Source: Acholeplasmataceae bacterium
GTDB lineage: Bacteria; Bacillota_I; Bacilli_A; Acholeplasmatales; UBA5453
Direction: 5' to 3'
Length of the DNA stretch: 64,000 nucleotides
Assembly: GCA_012522345.1 (NCBI GenBank)
Contig: JAAYKO010000040.1
Span: 386 to 64,385 of the forward strand
Part shown: positions 38,741 to 43,092 of the stretch, in pieces
How the letters are laid out: the number at the start of each line of letters is the position of its first letter
Numbering within the stretch: position 1 is the stretch's first letter
Program-made: the position numbers and the translations under genes
The notes under the pieces: model-generated
What the model saw: the letters and a program-made list of their open reading frames with translations, nothing else
The model's database searches: none
Told to the model about the DNA's origin: nothing

Positions 38741-39490
38741 TCAAAGGTCAAAATAGGCGTTAAAAGTAAAAGCTCTTTCTTTTTTTGTTAAATTAAAAAT
38801 TTGATAAGTGTTGGTTTTTTCATTTAATCCTTTCTTTACTACAAACCGATCAGATTTTTGCATTTCTTTATGAAAATATAACTCTATTCGCTTTAAGTTT
38901 TTTAATTCTTTAATTTGACTTTCACTAAAACAATCATAAACAAATTCACTATACCGCAAATTATTAACATGTCCTAGCCCATCGAGATGACTGTTTTCAA
39001 TTTGACCTTCTTTTATGTCAACAAACTCAAGATTTTGTTTAAATGTAGGATTAGCTTCAACTAAGTGCGTTAACTCTTCAGTTAAAATCTCAAAAGGTAG
39101 CTGTCTTTGTTTATAAATTGATCTATTTTCTAAATCAAGTAATACAGAATATGAAGCTCCTTTACAAATTGTTTGATTATTTTTATCGACAACATTATAT
39201 TCTCTGCGGAAAAAGGGACCTCTTCTTCCTGAATACCATGTACTACCGATTAATTGTTGGGATTCAGTGAGAGGTTTTTCAATAACAAGACTCATTGACA
39301 CTAAAACCCAAGCATATTTATTAGCTAAAACGACTCCTACGCCTTGATCGGTGCTTGAGAGATGTTTATCTGCTAAAATGTTAAAAAGTGCTTGATATCC
39401 GTATGGCTTAAGCTCTAAATTTTCATTAAAGTGCTCGAATGGTGGTTCTAAAATATATTTTTTTCGCATTTCGCTTTTCATCTTTTTCAT
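38741..39490 (-). CDS. Acyl-ACP thioesterase family protein
   Basis: 249 aa double-hotdog-like protein. The DGLGHVNNLRYSEF motif and overall layout resemble the FatA/B-type bacterial thioesterases. Confidence 0.65.
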   Translation of the reverse strand: MKKMKSEMRKKYILEPPFEHFNENLELKPYGYQALFNILADKHLSSTDQGVGVVLANKYAWVLVSMSLVIEKPLTESQQLIGSTWYSGRRGPFFRREYNVVDKNNQTICKGASYSVLLDLENRSIYKQRQLPFEILTEELTHLVEANPTFKQNLEFVDIKEGQIENSHLDGLGHVNNLRYSEFVYDCFSESQIKELKNLKRIELYFHKEMQKSDRFVVKKGLNEKTNTYQIFNLTKKERAFTFNAYFDL

Positions 39491-40407
39491 TCCTCTTGTT
39501 TCATTTTATAATATTTGCTCGCTATTCGGGCTCCTAATTTAGCATTGCTATAAATTAACTCTAAATTAGCCTTTAATGTTTTTCCTTTTGTTTCTAATGC
39601 TAAATCTTGAAGTAAAAAAGGGGTTAATTTTTTACCCATTATTCCTTTGATTTGAGCTTTTTGATGACTTTTATCAATAATTTTCGCCAATTCATTATAA
39701 TCAAGTTCAAATTTTCTTTCTAATGGATTCGTTACTAAAACACCTGTAGTTAAAGCTAGTTTTTCTTGAACAATAACAAAACGGGCTAATTCAGTTACTG
39801 TGTCAAGTCTTAAATTAAGCTTAAATGGACTTTTTGAAGAATAAAATGCAGGTAAATAATCTGTTTTGTATCCGATAACTGGTACTCCTTTTGTTTCAAG
39901 ATACTCAAGTGTTTTACCCAAATCTAAAATTGATTTAATCCCAGCAGAGACTACTACTACCGATGTTCTTGCTAACTCTTCTAAATCCGCTGAAACATCC
40001 ATAGAACTATTGTAGTCTTGATGAACTCCTCCAATCCCTCCTGTCACAAAAAACTTTATTCCGGCTTTGTTTGCAATAATCATTGTTGCAGCTACAGTAG
40101 TAGCCCCAGAAAAGCCTTGGCTTACAACATAAGCTAAATCACTGCGCGAAACTTTTAAAACATTATCACTTTTCGCCAATAATAGAAGTTGATCCTCATT
40201 CAAACCAACATGAATTTTCCCCTCTATTATCGCAATTGTTGCTGGAATAGCACCATTAGATCTAATTATTGATTCAACATGTTGTGCCATCTTAAAATTG
40301 AGCGGCTCGGGCAGTCCATGACTAATAATTGTTGACTCAAGAGCAACTATTGGTTTTTTTTCTTGTAATGCTTGTTTAACTTCCTGTGATAAAATTAGTT
40401 CTTGCAT
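39487..40407 (-). CDS. psuG: Pseudouridine-5'-phosphate glycosidase
   Basis: Motifs PIVALESTIISHGLP, VTGGIGGVH and DVSADL. The ATG at 40407 follows the RBS AAAGGTGAGG. The 42-aa N-terminal extension in the track is not conserved-looking. Confidence 0.85.
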   Translation of the reverse strand: MQELILSQEVKQALQEKKPIVALESTIISHGLPEPLNFKMAQHVESIIRSNGAIPATIAIIEGKIHVGLNEDQLLLLAKSDNVLKVSRSDLAYVVSQGFSGATTVAATMIIANKAGIKFFVTGGIGGVHQDYNSSMDVSADLEELARTSVVVVSAGIKSILDLGKTLEYLETKGVPVIGYKTDYLPAFYSSKSPFKLNLRLDTVTELARFVIVQEKLALTTGVLVTNPLERKFELDYNELAKIIDKSHQKAQIKGIMGKKLTPFLLQDLALETKGKTLKANLELIYSNAKLGARIASKYYKMKQEE

Positions 40408-40533
40408 TTCAAACCTCACCTTTAATCTTAAAAACTTTGCAATGTTCGCATTGTTTTTGTGTAATATAAAACATATTATGTTAATATTATATGTTAGATA
40501 TAAAACAAAAGCGCTTGAATGCGCTTTATTCAT

Positions 40534-41074: not shown

Positions 41075-42871
41075 TTAATTTAATAATTTGTTCATCGCTT
41101 CTTCAGTTTCAAATTTTAAAGATTCTAATGCTCTTTTTGGGCTTAATGTATAATCAGGGAAAATTGGTTTTCCGATATTGACAATCATCCGTTCTTTAAT
41201 TTTGTTTTTTGAGTTTCTCCGCTCCTGGATATTAATTCTTATCGGTACTATTGGAACTGATGACTCAACCGCTAATTTAAAAGCTCCGCGTTTAAATTGA
41301 CGAATATTTTTATCTCCTTCAATTAACTCTCCTTCTGGAAAAAAATGAATAAATTTACCGTTGCGGGCTTTTTTAGACAATTCATTGAAAAAGATTCGGT
41401 TTTCAGTAATGCTTTCTGGCGTTGGGACAGTTCCTAACGCTCTGACAATTTGCCCAACTACTGGCTTTTTAAAGTTTGCTTTAATGGCCGTAAAGACGAC
41501 CTTTTTTGGAAAAGCAGCTAAGCCTGACATCACTGAATCTAAGGTGTGAACATGATTTGAAACAATTACAGCTCCCCCTTTAATTTTTTTAAGATGATGT
41601 TTGTTATTAATCTTAGCCTTTAGGTAAGCTTTATTATAAGCCATCAAAAGCGGAACAACAATATAATAAAAAGCAGTTGTCAACGTTTTTTCAACTCGTC
41701 CTTTTTTAATTGTTTTTCTAATCGGCTTACCTCTTTTACTAGTTGCTAAAAGGTTGTTTTTATGATCAACAATTGCCTCTCTAACCATATCTTCAAAGCG
41801 ATTCACTGAATTTAATAAACTATATTTCTCACTCGATTTAGCATATTCTAACTCCATTTTGTGTCGCTCTTGGTCATTTGTCAACCAATATTCCATCTTT
41901 TCTTTTAAATCTTCGACATCGCCTGGCGCGAATAAGCTTCTTTCATCAAGAACAAACTGAACTGAAGCGCTATTTTTAGCATTTGCAATCAAGGGCACTC
42001 GGCCACAGGCAATCGCCTCTAAACATGAAATTCCTTCAATTTCTATATCTGAAGCATGAATATATAAGTCTTGTTGTGAAATCTTTTCGATTAAATCATC
42101 TTTTGAATAAAATCCAAACTCAACATTGACTTTTAATCTTTTTGCTAGTTGTACAAGTCGATCTTTTGTCGGACCGATACCAGCAAGAGTTAAAATTATT
42201 TTATCTCTATATTGACTCTTACCAATCGCTTTTATAATTATTTCTTGTCTTTTTTCATGAGCAAATCTGCCGATGGCAATTATATTAAAATGCTCTTTAT
42301 CTTTTTGAGGTTCGAAATATTTAAAATCACAACTCACACCATTTGAGATTACATGAAACTGATTTGGATATTGATAACTCTTTAATTTTGCCGCTGTCAA
42401 ACTTGAAGGACAATGAACATGTTTTACATTTTTAAAAAACCTTCTAAAGCGACGATATAACATTCCTTTTAAAGGCCAATTTAAAAACCGCAGTTTCGCA
42501 CCATAAATGATGCTTTCTGGCGGAACATGAAAGGCCGTCGTTACAGGAATATTCATTTTTTTTGCTATTTTTAATGCCATCTTAGATGTTTTCCAAGGTG
42601 TTATTAAATGAACAATATCAGCACCCTGAAGAGCTTCCTCTAAAACCTTTTTGTTTGGTTTTGAAAAAGTAACACCTTGTTTTTTCGCTACATAACTTAC
42701 TATTGGAATATGACGTGTTTTTAAGGTGTAGATATCTTGACCGACGACATCGTTGCTTACGATTCTTATTTCATGGCCAAGTTTTTTTAGTGCTTCAGTA
42801 AAACGGTAAGCTGTTATATTTGTGCCATTTGATAAATTTTTATAATTATCAATAACGAAAACAATTACCAT
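41075..42871 (-). CDS. Fusion protein: GT4 glycosyltransferase (diacylglycerol glycosyltransferase-like) plus PlsC/LPLAT-type acyltransferase
   Basis: The N-terminal 385 aa or so is GT-B/GT4, with EX7E (EIEGISCLEAIACGRVP). A hydrophobic linker follows (FYYIVVPLLMAY). The C-terminal domain carries the acyltransferase motifs VSNHVHTLD (HX4D) and FFPEGE. The ATG at 42871 follows the RBS AAGGGTGA. Confidence 0.75.
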   Translation of the reverse strand: MVIVFVIDNYKNLSNGTNITAYRFTEALKKLGHEIRIVSNDVVGQDIYTLKTRHIPIVSYVAKKQGVTFSKPNKKVLEEALQGADIVHLITPWKTSKMALKIAKKMNIPVTTAFHVPPESIIYGAKLRFLNWPLKGMLYRRFRRFFKNVKHVHCPSSLTAAKLKSYQYPNQFHVISNGVSCDFKYFEPQKDKEHFNIIAIGRFAHEKRQEIIIKAIGKSQYRDKIILTLAGIGPTKDRLVQLAKRLKVNVEFGFYSKDDLIEKISQQDLYIHASDIEIEGISCLEAIACGRVPLIANAKNSASVQFVLDERSLFAPGDVEDLKEKMEYWLTNDQERHKMELEYAKSSEKYSLLNSVNRFEDMVREAIVDHKNNLLATSKRGKPIRKTIKKGRVEKTLTTAFYYIVVPLLMAYNKAYLKAKINNKHHLKKIKGGAVIVSNHVHTLDSVMSGLAAFPKKVVFTAIKANFKKPVVGQIVRALGTVPTPESITENRIFFNELSKKARNGKFIHFFPEGELIEGDKNIRQFKRGAFKLAVESSVPIVPIRINIQERRNSKNKIKERMIVNIGKPIFPDYTLSPKRALESLKFETEEAMNKLLN

Positions 42872-43092
42872 AGTTTTCACCCTTTTTTGTTCTCTCAAGT
42901 ATTAATTTTATCATAAAGGAAAAATTATTCAATAAGTTAAGAAACTTTAACATATTTTAATTCTTCAAGTTTTTCCGTTTTTTCTCATGAAAAATCCTCT
43001 AAAGTAGATAAAATTAGAGTCTTTTAATTTATTTTTATAACTAGTAGAGAACACTAGTGATTTTAATCGAAAGAGTTTTAAAATTACCTTCG

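What the first reader, a model, noticed from the sequence alone, without database searches (positions are those of the whole stretch)
41075..42898. Single polypeptide fusing a GT4 lipid glycosyltransferase to a PlsC-type acyltransferase
Seen in sequence:
- Residues 1-385 or so are a GT-B/GT4 enzyme with the EX7E motif. Its N-terminal layout is like the diacylglycerol glucosyltransferases of wall-less and Gram-positive bacteria.
- A hydrophobic or interfacial segment follows (FYYIVVPLLMAY).
- A complete lysophospholipid-acyltransferase domain then follows, with HX4D (NHVHTLD) and FPEGE motifs.

Established knowledge: Acholeplasma-type membranes contain glucosyl-diacylglycerols and additionally acylated glycolipids (monoacyl-MGlcDAG).

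Inference: the fusion could channel two consecutive steps. Options are acylation of a lyso-precursor followed by glycosylation, or glycosylation followed by O-acylation of the sugar. It is therefore a candidate for acyl-glycolipid synthesis. It may also be relevant that cardiolipin synthase in this same window is disrupted.
Basis: partly seen in the sequence, partly recalled or inferred. Interest (0 to 1): 0.58.

Follow-up and report, generated by a model that had tools for sequence, protein, structure and literature searches.

The report
Fused lipid glycosyltransferase–acyltransferase enzyme
One gene encodes a membrane-surface enzyme that joins a sugar-adding domain, closely related to the Helicobacter pylori cholesterol glucosyltransferase, to a fatty-acyl-adding domain; it probably builds acylated sugar lipids, and the fused family is widespread in bacteria, with no functional study found in the literature searched.

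Summary
An uninterrupted minus-strand gene (41075-42871, 598 aa from the ATG) encodes GT4 domains and a PF01553 acyltransferase, all above Pfam cutoffs. EX7E, HX4D and FPEG are invariant in 20 aligned relatives and kept across about 109 fused ones.

It is not an assembly artefact. The fusion recurs in Acholeplasmatales, Treponema and other spirochaetes, many Clostridia, and Micromonosporaceae.

New points:
- The GT domain is not the Acholeplasma diacylglycerol (DAG) glucosyltransferase alMGS, which lies elsewhere in this genome. Its closest characterised relative is H. pylori Cgt (46% identity, TM 0.97).
- The acyltransferase has a PlsC fold but lacks the PlsC EGTR signature. A canonical PlsC-like paralog exists separately.
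- The two domains co-evolve, and fused and GT-only forms interleave on the tree.
- Haploplasma axanthum makes an O-acylated alpha-glucosyl cholesterol. It carries a fused copy with a decayed GT half and an intact acyltransferase, plus an intact GT-only copy derived from a fused ancestor.

Best reading: a two-step synthase of O-acylated alpha-glycosyl lipids. DAG is the favoured aglycone and sterol is possible. The acylated position is not shown. The earlier scan notes retrieved did not record this protein on other DNA. I found no published characterisation. Interest is moderate.

The parts
41075..42871 (-). Coding sequence of the fused GT4-acyltransferase (598 aa plus stop); the mechanical ORF extends to TTG 42898
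   Evidence: ORF list and translation. The start was chosen from homologue N-termini, identity to cluster P0002, and the RBS and promoter-like site.
42905..42932 (-). Promoter-like site TTGAAT-16 nt-TG-TAAAAT, about 34 nt upstream of the ATG
   Evidence: Consensus scan and sequence. This is a pattern match only; the number of sites in the region did not exceed shuffles.
42878..42884 (-). Ribosome-binding site AAGGGTG, 6 nt before ATG 42871
   Evidence: Read directly from the sequence.
42326..42829 (-). GT-B N-terminal (acceptor-side) Rossmann domain, Glyco_transf_4
   Evidence: Pfam PF13439, 77.5 bits. The Atlas model aligns the whole GT region to the Campylobacterota 'CapJ' (Cgt) cluster, 378 residues, TM 0.94.
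41852..42313 (-). GT-B C-terminal (nucleotide-sugar) domain, Glycos_transf_1
   Evidence: Pfam PF00534, 90.1 bits. Against 3qhp (H. pylori Cgt catalytic domain): E 6e-45 by sequence; 46% identity, TM 0.97, rmsd 1.0 by Foldseek.
42017..42043 (-). EX7E motif EIEGISCLE (E277...E285 in 598-aa numbering)
   Evidence: Translation. Invariant in 20 relatives. An EX7E-like motif is present in 108 of 109 fused proteins.
41621..41698 (-). Hydrophobic interfacial helix flanked by Lys/Arg-rich segments; probable monotopic membrane anchor, equivalent to the N-terminal helices of PlsC
   Evidence: Translation. AF2 places a helix at 392-417. The highest Kyte-Doolittle 19-residue score here is 1.22, below the usual TM threshold. 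The domain profile aligns to TmPlsC from chain residue 59, downstream of this helix.
41234..41614 (-). PlsC-fold (LPLAT superfamily) acyltransferase domain
   Evidence: Pfam PF01553, 76.5 bits. Profile against PDB: 5kym, E 8e-13. VIA-align: Z 17.1 to 5kym. AF2 domain model pLDDT 91.
41537..41557 (-). Block I catalytic motif NHVHTLD (HX4D)
   Evidence: Translation. N, H and D are invariant. All 109 fused proteins collected by this motif read NHVHxxD.
41324..41341 (-). Block III motif FPEGEL (no Thr-Arg, unlike PlsC FPEGTR)
   Evidence: Translation. Comparison with the genome's own PlsC-like paralog. Family counts: PEGEL in 63, none with PEGTR.

Best explanation
The gene encodes a bifunctional, monotopic enzyme at the cytoplasmic face of the membrane. 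It makes an O-acylated alpha-glycosyl membrane lipid in two steps.

Step 1 is inferred from homology to Cgt. The N-terminal retaining GT4 domain transfers a hexose, probably glucose from UDP-glucose, in alpha linkage onto the hydroxyl of a membrane lipid. Diacylglycerol is favoured as the family's general acceptor. A sterol taken up from the environment is possible.

Step 2 is inferred. The C-terminal PlsC-fold domain uses its His-Asp dyad to transfer a fatty acyl group from acyl-ACP or acyl-CoA onto that glycolipid. The most likely target is a sugar hydroxyl, giving acyl-alpha-Glc-DAG or acyl-alpha-Glc-sterol.

The basic and hydrophobic linker helix holds both active sites at the membrane surface.

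Shown here: the domain identities, conservation of both catalytic centres, co-evolution of the two domains, and the close relationship to Cgt. Not shown: the donor sugar, the aglycone, the acyl donor, the acylated position, and the order of the steps.
For: - Both domains score above Pfam cutoffs. G16, R202, E206, K207, E277/E285, H440/D445, P512-E513 and P540/P543 are invariant across 20 relatives of 36-64% identity. The motifs are kept in about 109 fused proteins.
- The GT half is close to H. pylori Cgt: E 6e-45; 46% identity, TM 0.97. The Atlas model matches full-length Cgt over the whole GT region at TM 0.94. Helicobacter orthologues are 43-44% identical over 330 aa. On the tree the Helicobacter clade nests inside this family, while the genome's own alMGS and Dgs-like GTs are very distant.
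- The genome already has an alMGS orthologue, a Dgs-like GT and PlsC-like paralogs. The fusion is therefore an extra, specialised activity.
- The acyltransferase has a PlsC fold (Z 17.1). It has FPEG-E-L where PlsC has FPEGTR, and no Arg in block II, unlike the genome's own PlsC-like paralog. By established motif studies this argues against a phosphate-monoester acceptor such as lysophosphatidic acid (LPA).
- Functional coupling: the GT and AT trees share the same subclades. Fused and GT-only forms interleave. In a GT-only genus the GT4 sits in a cluster with two stand-alone acyltransferases of this subtype and a GT2.
- H. axanthum makes alpha-Glc-(1-3)-(O-acyl)-alpha-Glc-(1-3)-cholesterol (PMC5884252; Mayberry & Smith 1983 as cited in PMC8168883). 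It carries a fused copy with an eroded GT and an intact AT, plus an intact GT-only copy that nests in the fused clade.
- The same two-step chemistry, alpha-glucosylation followed by 6'-O-acylation, is proven in H. pylori with an unrelated acyltransferase (PMC7069968).
Against: - There is no biochemical datum for any member of the fused family.
- PlsC-fold enzymes typically acylate a glycerol hydroxyl. Sugar acylation by this subtype is inferred, not demonstrated.
- Loss of EGTR only argues against LPA. It does not discriminate a sugar hydroxyl from the glycerol hydroxyl of a lyso-glycolipid or monoacylglycerol.
- The aglycone is unresolved. The only characterised relative uses cholesterol, but carriers include free-living Actinoplanes and Dactylosporangium and many Clostridia, which are not known to contain sterols (my knowledge).
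- Four of 14 species in the A. granularum genus lack the gene, so it is dispensable.
- No neighbouring gene is conserved that would fix the pathway.
- The H. axanthum link is a correlation in one species.
Confidence: 0.55

Rival explanations
1. The acyltransferase works on the glycerol backbone rather than the sugar. It would re-acylate a lyso-glycolipid, or acylate monoacylglycerol to supply diacylglycerol. The fusion would then couple acceptor supply or remodelling to glycosylation, and the product would be an ordinary, not sugar-acylated, alpha-glycosyl-DAG.
For: The closest fold is PlsC, then GPAT1 and tafazzin, all glycerol-backbone acyltransferases or transacylases. The nearest NCBIfam hits are AGPAT and acyl-ACP-phospholipid acyltransferase models, below their cutoffs. 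Absence of EGTR fits a neutral glycerolipid acceptor as well as it fits a sugar.
Against: The genome has other PF01553 paralogs for backbone acylation. H. axanthum keeps the AT while its GT decays, and that species' documented product carries an O-acyl on glucose (PMC5884252). PatA, a sugar 6-O-acyltransferase, shares the same superfamily fold (Z 11.5; Foldseek tie with PlsC), so sugar acylation lies within the fold's repertoire.
Confidence: 0.2
2. In this organism the enzyme is a sterol-modifying system. It would make cholesteryl (or phytosteryl) alpha-glucoside and its O-acyl derivative from sterol taken up from the environment. This would be the one-polypeptide equivalent of H. pylori Cgt plus CGAT. 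It is a sub-case of the best explanation with a specific aglycone.
For: The only characterised family member is a sterol glucosyltransferase, and it is close. H. axanthum has family members and makes an acylated alpha-glucosyl cholesterol (PMC5884252). Acholeplasmas incorporate exogenous sterols (established knowledge).
Against: The family occurs in free-living Micromonosporaceae and many anaerobic Clostridia. The Helicobacter clade is one nested GT-only branch, so sterol use could be a derived specialisation. Nothing in the window points to sterol uptake.
Confidence: 0.2
3. The two domains are functionally unrelated: a housekeeping LPA acyltransferase (PlsC) that happens to be fused to a glycosyltransferase.
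For: Some automatic annotations call relatives '1-acyl-sn-glycerol-3-phosphate acyltransferase'. The fold is that of PlsC.
Against: TIGR00530 scores 63 bits against a cutoff of 103, whereas the separate C41 paralog scores 98 bits and has FPEGTR. No fused member among those scored has PEGTR. The domains co-evolve and recur across phyla. GT-only forms cluster with stand-alone ATs of this subtype.
Confidence: 0.04
4. The fusion is an assembly or frameshift artefact that joins two genes.
For: None found.
Against: The identical 598-aa protein was seen on 6 contigs. Full-length fused ORFs occur in complete genomes and in over 70 named genomes. The AF2 full-length model has pTM 0.86.
Confidence: 0.01

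Closest known systems
Helicobacter pylori cholesterol alpha-glucosyltransferase Cgt (HP0421, 'CapJ'; PDB 3qhp), GT4
   Same: It is the closest characterised homologue of the GT half: E 6e-45; 46% identity, TM 0.97, rmsd 1.0 A over the catalytic domain. The Atlas model matches it over the whole GT region at TM 0.94. It shares the EX7E and GR..EK motifs. It is a membrane-associated retaining GT acting on a lipid hydroxyl (PMC10489377). On the tree the Helicobacter clade nests within this family.
   Different: Cgt is GT-only (389 aa). In H. pylori its product is acylated by an unrelated outer-membrane phospholipase-A1-type enzyme, CGAT/HP0499, with phosphatidylethanolamine as acyl donor (PMC7069968). 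The acceptor of the window protein is unknown, and most carriers are not known to have sterols.
Thermotoga maritima PlsC (PDB 5kym), 1-acyl-sn-glycerol-3-phosphate acyltransferase
   Same: It is the closest solved relative of the AT half: profile E 8e-13; Z 17.1, rmsd 3.0 over 180 residues. It shares HX4D, FPEG and the VPxxP block IV, and has a hydrophobic N-terminal helical membrane anchor.
   Different: The window domain has FPEG-E-L where PlsC has FPEGTR, and no Arg in block II. It scores below the TIGR00530 cutoff. It is appended to a GT rather than free-standing.
Mycobacterial PimA (GT4) and PatA (acyltransferase) pair in phosphatidylinositol mannoside synthesis
   Same: The logic is the same: a GT4 puts an alpha-hexose on a membrane lipid, then a monotopic His-dyad acyltransferase of the same fold superfamily acylates the 6-OH of that sugar (PMC4792965). 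PatA is a fold match (Z 11.5; Foldseek E 7e-7). An 861-aa variant of the present family also carries a CDP-alcohol phosphatidyltransferase domain. From memory, this recalls the mycobacterial pgsA1-patA-pimA gene cluster.
   Different: PimA and PatA are separate proteins. PatA is more distant from this domain than PlsC is. PimA is only 14-18% identical, and its acceptor is phosphatidylinositol.
Acholeplasma laidlawii alMGS (alpha-monoglucosyl-DAG synthase, NF049988)
   Same: Both are GT4 retaining lipid glycosyltransferases of wall-less bacteria.
   Different: The GT domain is not an orthologue: 30 bits against a cutoff of 400. The genome's real alMGS is on contig C8 (422 bits) and is an extremely long branch away on the tree.

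Membership tests
GT4 retaining GT-B glycosyltransferases | Two Rossmann-like domains matching the Glyco_transf_4 and Glycos_transf_1 profiles | tested here: met
   PF13439 at 77.5 bits and PF00534 at 90.1 bits, above cutoffs. AF2 fold matches to BshA, PimA and MshA.
GT4 retaining GT-B glycosyltransferases | EX7E motif and the G-R-x3-E-K phosphate-binding motif in the C-terminal domain | tested here: met
   E277...E285, R202, E206 and K207 are invariant in 20 relatives. Translation confirmed.
Cgt (HP0421-type) lipid alpha-glucosyltransferase family | Close sequence and structure relationship to HP0421 over the whole GT region | tested here: met
   E 6e-45; 46% identity, TM 0.97. Full-length TM 0.94. 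Helicobacter orthologues are 43-44% identical. One tight clade on the tree.
Cgt (HP0421-type) lipid alpha-glucosyltransferase family | UDP-glucose-dependent alpha-glucosylation of the sterol 3-OH | not testable with these tools
   Needs an enzyme assay. The distribution in organisms not known to hold sterols argues that sterol is not the universal acceptor.
alMGS (alpha-monoglucosyldiacylglycerol synthase, NF049988) | Score at or above the curated equivalog cutoff (400 bits) | tested here: not met
   30.2 bits. A different gene in the same genome scores 421.9 bits.
LPLAT / PlsC-type acyltransferase superfamily (PF01553) | Profile match, the HX4D catalytic dyad and the PlsC-like alpha/beta fold | tested here: met
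   PF01553 at 76.5 bits. NHVHTLD. 5kym: E 8e-13 and Z 17.1.
PlsC proper (1-acyl-sn-glycerol-3-phosphate acyltransferase, TIGR00530) | Score at or above the curated cutoff (102.95 bits) | tested here: not met
   63.1 bits.
PlsC proper (1-acyl-sn-glycerol-3-phosphate acyltransferase, TIGR00530) | Block III EGTR (and a block II Arg), implicated in binding the acceptor phosphate (Lewin et al. 1999, as cited in 10.1101/2022.08.18.504050; residue roles from my knowledge) | tested here: not met
   FPEGEL here. No fused protein among those scored has PEGTR. The genome's own C41 paralog has FPEGTR.
Sugar O-acyltransferase acting on glycolipids (PatA-like function) | Transfer of an acyl group to a hexose hydroxyl of a glycolipid | not testable with these tools
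   Only fold-level similarity to PatA (Z 11.5). Circumstantial support from the H. axanthum lipid chemistry (PMC5884252) and its gene content.

The most novel reading that the evidence does not exclude
This family would be the long-missing enzyme for sugar-acylated glycolipids of wall-less and Gram-positive bacteria and spirochaetes. A single polypeptide would both attach an alpha-glucose to a membrane lipid and esterify that glucose. In host-associated carriers (Acholeplasma/Haploplasma, gut Clostridia, Treponema) it would convert host sterol into acylated steryl alpha-glucosides. That would make H. pylori-type cholesterol glucoside chemistry widespread among commensals, with Cgt itself a GT-only offshoot of the family.
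Probability: 0.2. Interest if true: 0.75.

Novelty: new variant of a known kind. Interest (0 to 1): 0.5.

Why it matters
Sugar-acylated glycolipids are long-known membrane components. Examples are monoacyl-MGlcDAG of Acholeplasma, acyl-diglucosylcholesterol of A. axanthum, and acylated cholesteryl glycosides of Helicobacter and Borrelia. In pathogens they are immunologically active. I found no gene assigned to their acylation in Mollicutes, and the Borrelia acyltransferase is also still unidentified (PMC8168883).

This family gives a concrete, easily testable candidate. It ties the medically studied H. pylori Cgt to a large and mostly unstudied family found in gut Clostridia, Treponema and Acholeplasmatales. 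It also offers a natural separation-of-function experiment in H. axanthum, where one copy has a decayed GT and the other has lost its acyltransferase.

If the sterol reading fails, the family is still a new bifunctional route to acyl-glycosyl-diacylglycerols.

Tried and rejected
- Conserved neighbours: I clustered the ORFs of 80 related loci. The best neighbour family occurs in only 12 of 80, so no operon partner defines the pathway.
- In the window, the gene is probably co-transcribed with a pncA-like isochorismatase gene (22-nt gap; terminator-like hairpin after pncA). The acyl-ACP thioesterase two genes further on lies after that hairpin. Neither arrangement is found in relatives, so I give it no weight.
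- Literature: four full-text searches found no paper that characterises a GT4-PF01553 fusion or identifies the monoacyl-MGlcDAG acyltransferase.
- The original Cgt paper (Lebrun et al. 2006) is not held, so I could not read its acceptor-specificity data.
- A. laidlawii: 10 of 14 species in the A. granularum genus carry the fusion. Genome handles are anonymous, so I could not tell whether A. laidlawii, the source of the monoacyl-MGlcDAG chemistry, is a carrier.
- Model coordinates are not exposed to scripts. The distance and relative orientation of the two active sites could not be measured.
- Some 'GT-only' metagenomic proteins on very short contigs (for example P0104) may be truncated fused genes. 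I therefore count about four robust fusion or fission events, not the six the tree statistic gives.
Full report

Yes. Coordinates 41075-42898 contain a single open frame on the minus strand.
- The mechanical ORF starts at TTG 42898. Every homologue begins at the equivalent of MVIVFV.
- An AAGGGTG ribosome-binding site lies 6 nt before ATG 42871. A promoter-like site, TTGAAT-16 nt-TG-TAAAAT, lies at 42932-42905.
- The gene is therefore 41075-42871 and encodes 598 aa, identical to database cluster P0002.

Pfam places three domains, all above their gathering cutoffs (607-aa numbering):

| Domain | Residues | Score (bits) |
|---|---|---|
| Glyco_transf_4 | 24-191 | 77.5 |
| Glycos_transf_1 | 196-349 | 90.1 |
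| Acyltransferase PF01553 | 429-555 | 76.5 |

**2. Is the fusion genuine and under selection?**

About 100 protein clusters of roughly 600 aa carry the same three Pfam families. A scan of one genome per species found 541 related stretches. The best 80 are nearly all full-length fusions. They come from Acholeplasmataceae, Treponema, other Spirochaetota, a Leptospirales MAG, many Clostridia, Erysipelotrichaceae and Micromonosporaceae (Actinoplanes, Dactylosporangium, Hamadaea).

In an alignment of 20 members sharing 36-64% identity, these residues are invariant:
- GT half: G16, R202, E206, K207, and the EX7E pair E277/E285.
- Acyltransferase half: N439, H440, D445, P512, E513, F526, G529, F531, P540, P543.

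I collected 109 fused proteins by their HX4D motif. All read NHVHxxD, and 108 keep an EX7E-like motif. The AF2 model of the whole protein is confident (pLDDT 89.5, pTM 0.86). Assembly error is excluded, and both halves look catalytically competent.

**3. What is the GT half?**

It is not the Acholeplasma diacylglycerol (DAG) glucosyltransferase.
- The NCBIfam equivalog for alMGS gives it 30 bits against a cutoff of 400.
- A different gene on contig C8 scores 422 bits and is the real alMGS. A Dgs/IagA-like GT lies on contig C2.

The closest solved structure by far is 3qhp. [quoted passage not shown]
- By sequence: E 6e-45 over 162 residues.
- By Foldseek: 46% identity, TM 0.97, rmsd 1.0 A.
- The next GT4 structures are only 12-19% identical.
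- PMC10489377 uses the CapJ knockout as the CGT knockout, and PMC8168883 calls HP0421 the only other characterised bacterial cholesterol glycosyltransferase.
- The protein Atlas's own model aligns the whole GT region to the 389-aa Campylobacterota CapJ cluster (378 residues, TM 0.94).

A search restricted to GT-only lengths returned 659 relatives. Named hits include Helicobacter species (43-44% identity over 330 aa), Treponema brennaborense, Hallerella and Haploplasma axanthum. The H. salomonis protein scores 181 bits against 3qhp, against 157 for the window protein.

On a maximum-likelihood tree of 62 GT domains (quick search, SH-aLRT support only):
- The fused and GT-only proteins form one tight family.
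- The Helicobacter clade nests inside that family.
- The genome's own alMGS and Dgs-like GTs sit on branches of 6.7 and 10 changes per site.

**4. What is the acyltransferase half?**

A profile of 28 domain sequences finds Thermotoga maritima PlsC (5kym, E 8e-13) and, weakly, tafazzin. The domain modelled alone (pLDDT 91) gives these VIA-align Z-scores:

| Structure | Z |
|---|---|
| PlsC (5kym; rmsd 3.0 A over 180 residues) | 17.1 |
| GPAT1 | 15.7 |
| Tafazzin | 14.5 |
| Squash GPAT | 12.8 |
| PatA | 11.5 |
| LpxM | 9.9 |

Foldseek ties PlsC and PatA at E 7e-7.

The domain is a bona fide LPLAT-superfamily enzyme but not a PlsC orthologue.
- TIGR00530 scores 63 bits against a cutoff of 103.
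- Block III reads FPEGEL rather than FPEGTR, and block II has Asn-Phe with no Arg. The genome's separate 272-aa paralog on C41 has NHKSGTD and FPEGTR and scores 98 bits.
- Family-wide, PEGEL dominates (63 proteins) and PEGTR never occurs.
- From established motif studies of glycerolipid acyltransferases, these Arg residues contact the acceptor's phosphate. Their absence argues against lysophosphatidic acid (LPA) as the acceptor.

The helix before the domain (598-aa residues 392-417) is hydrophobic but below TM threshold (KD19 1.22). It is flanked by Lys/Arg-rich segments. This fits a monotopic anchor like the N-terminal helices of PlsC.

**5. Are the two halves functionally coupled?**

Several independent lines say yes.
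- The AT-domain tree reproduces the subclades of the GT-domain tree: an Acholeplasma-type clade, Actinoplanes with its relatives, a Treponema pair, and an Oscillospiraceae/Pelethousia group. A single origin of the fused AT is not excluded.
- Fused and GT-only forms interleave on the GT tree. Starred branches force six changes. I count about four as robust after discounting possibly truncated metagenomic proteins.
- In the window's order, about 21 of 151 sampled genomes have the full fusion and about 44 have a GT-only form.
- In four of 20 GT-only loci examined, all from one genus, the GT4 lies in a cluster with a 257-aa and a 262-aa stand-alone acyltransferase of this subtype and a GT2.
- One lineage has an 861-aa protein that adds a PgsA/ClsA-like CDP-alcohol phosphatidyltransferase domain, another lipid head-group enzyme.
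- No neighbouring gene is conserved across the 80 fused loci, so the protein looks self-contained.

**6. The Haploplasma axanthum case**

Its sequence is encoded letter for letter in locus L101 from that genome.

G072 holds two family members.
- The GT-only copy keeps every GT motif. It nests with 95% support inside the clade of fused Acholeplasma proteins.
- The fused copy (L110:5989-7716, minus strand) has lost the NGT loop and the GR..EK, ISNG and EX7E signatures. Its Pfam GT scores have collapsed: 41.5 bits, and 26.3 bits, which is below cutoff. Its GT branch is 3.89 against a median of 0.41.
- The AT half of that fused copy is intact (NHVHMLD, YPEGEL, 67.7 bits) with an ordinary branch of 0.68.
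- It sits just downstream of a GtrA-family gene.

This pattern fits duplication of a fused gene followed by complementary loss. It implies that both activities are still needed.

A. axanthum is reported to make alpha-D-Glc-(1-3)-(O-acyl)-alpha-D-Glc-(1-3)-cholesterol (PMC5884252, citing Mayberry & Smith 1983; also cited in PMC8168883). That product needs alpha-glucosyl transfer and O-acylation of glucose. This is a correlation in one species, not proof.

**7. Mechanism**

The best reading (confidence 0.55) has two steps.
- The GT domain puts an alpha-hexose on a membrane lipid hydroxyl.
- The AT domain then esterifies the product, most likely on the sugar, from acyl-ACP or acyl-CoA. Both sites are held at the cytoplasmic membrane surface by the linker helix.

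H. pylori does the same two reactions, but with an unrelated outer-membrane phospholipase-A1-type acyltransferase that takes its acyl group from phosphatidylethanolamine (PMC7069968). A wall-less or Gram-positive cell has no such compartment.

The aglycone is unresolved.
- The breadth of carriers, including free-living actinomycetes and many anaerobes, favours DAG as the general acceptor.
- Sterol remains possible in host-associated lineages.

Main rivals:
- The AT acylates a glycerol hydroxyl of a lyso-glycolipid or monoacylglycerol (0.2).
- The enzyme is sterol-specific here, a sub-case of the best reading (0.2).
- The two halves are unrelated, with the AT a housekeeping PlsC (0.04).
- The fusion is an artefact (0.01).

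**8. Novelty and verdict**

The domain architecture is visible in databases, with generic names such as 'glycosyltransferase'. I found no functional study of it. Nor did I find any gene assigned to the sugar acylation of Acholeplasma glycolipids. The earlier scan notes retrieved did not record this protein on other DNA.

It is best described as a new variant of a known kind: a fused form of the known two-enzyme logic (Cgt/CGAT, PimA/PatA). Interest is moderate at 0.5. The candidate is well supported and easy to test, and it links H. pylori Cgt to a large unstudied family. The chemistry it would perform is already known.

Noticed in passing
L006:1393-3479 and L005:715-1779 (own genome, contig C8): The genome's true alMGS orthologue (399 aa, NF049988 at 422 bits) is preceded by a TIGR00374 flippase-like membrane protein (296 aa). 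About 0.9 kb downstream lies a 354-aa ORF that carries a weak PF01553 match in the genome search (26.9 bits) but gets no Pfam hit as a whole protein. This could be a second, separate glycolipid-acylation candidate.
   Followed up: partly
L003:1315-2100 (own genome, contig C29): A 261-aa stand-alone acyltransferase resembles the fusion's AT subtype (NHLHPID, RPFKKGAF) but has YPETSL instead of FPEGEL, so the Gly of block III is lost. Similar stand-alone proteins of about 260 aa occur in most species of the A. granularum genus.
   Followed up: partly
L090:1166-7137: In a GT-only genus of the same order, the minus-strand genes run Cgt-like GT4, AT-like (257 aa), GT2 (427 aa), PF01553 AT (262 aa) and a HI0933-like flavoprotein. 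A divergent HTH regulator gene lies between the GT4 and the first AT. It looks like a multi-step acylated-glycolipid locus.
   Followed up: partly
P0127 (861 aa; no locus fetched): A triple fusion: GT4 (15-345), PF01553 AT (435-561) and a PgsA/ClsA-like CDP-alcohol phosphatidyltransferase (664-816; TIGR00560 at 76 bits, below cutoff). Its cluster has 86 members. It hints at a phosphatidylated or acylated glycolipid, or at a phospholipid-linked acceptor.
   Followed up: partly
L110:5989-8214: The Haploplasma axanthum fused gene, with its decayed GT half, lies immediately downstream of a GtrA/DPMS-family membrane protein gene (141 aa). That family is proposed to flip lipid-linked sugars.
   Followed up: partly
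Atlas cluster, (no locus): Basidiomycota have a 733-aa 'PIG-A' cluster (69 members) that combines GT4 (PF00534, PF08288) with PF01553. This appears to be a convergent eukaryotic GT4-acyltransferase fusion in the GPI-anchor pathway.
   Followed up: no
window 40508-40533: A terminator-like hairpin (7 bp stem, 4 G-C pairs, T-rich tail) lies right after the pncA-like gene and inside the first codons of the listed psuG ORF (39487-40533). The Pfam match in psuG starts only at residue 51, so the true psuG start is probably further downstream. The fusion gene and pncA would then form their own transcription unit.
   Followed up: no
G076:C1:894684-895847 and G019:C1:331947-333083: Some GT-only copies carry in-frame stops. 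G076 has one TAG and one TAA, and it also has an intact fused copy. G019 has one TGA. This suggests ongoing decay of redundant copies.
   Followed up: no
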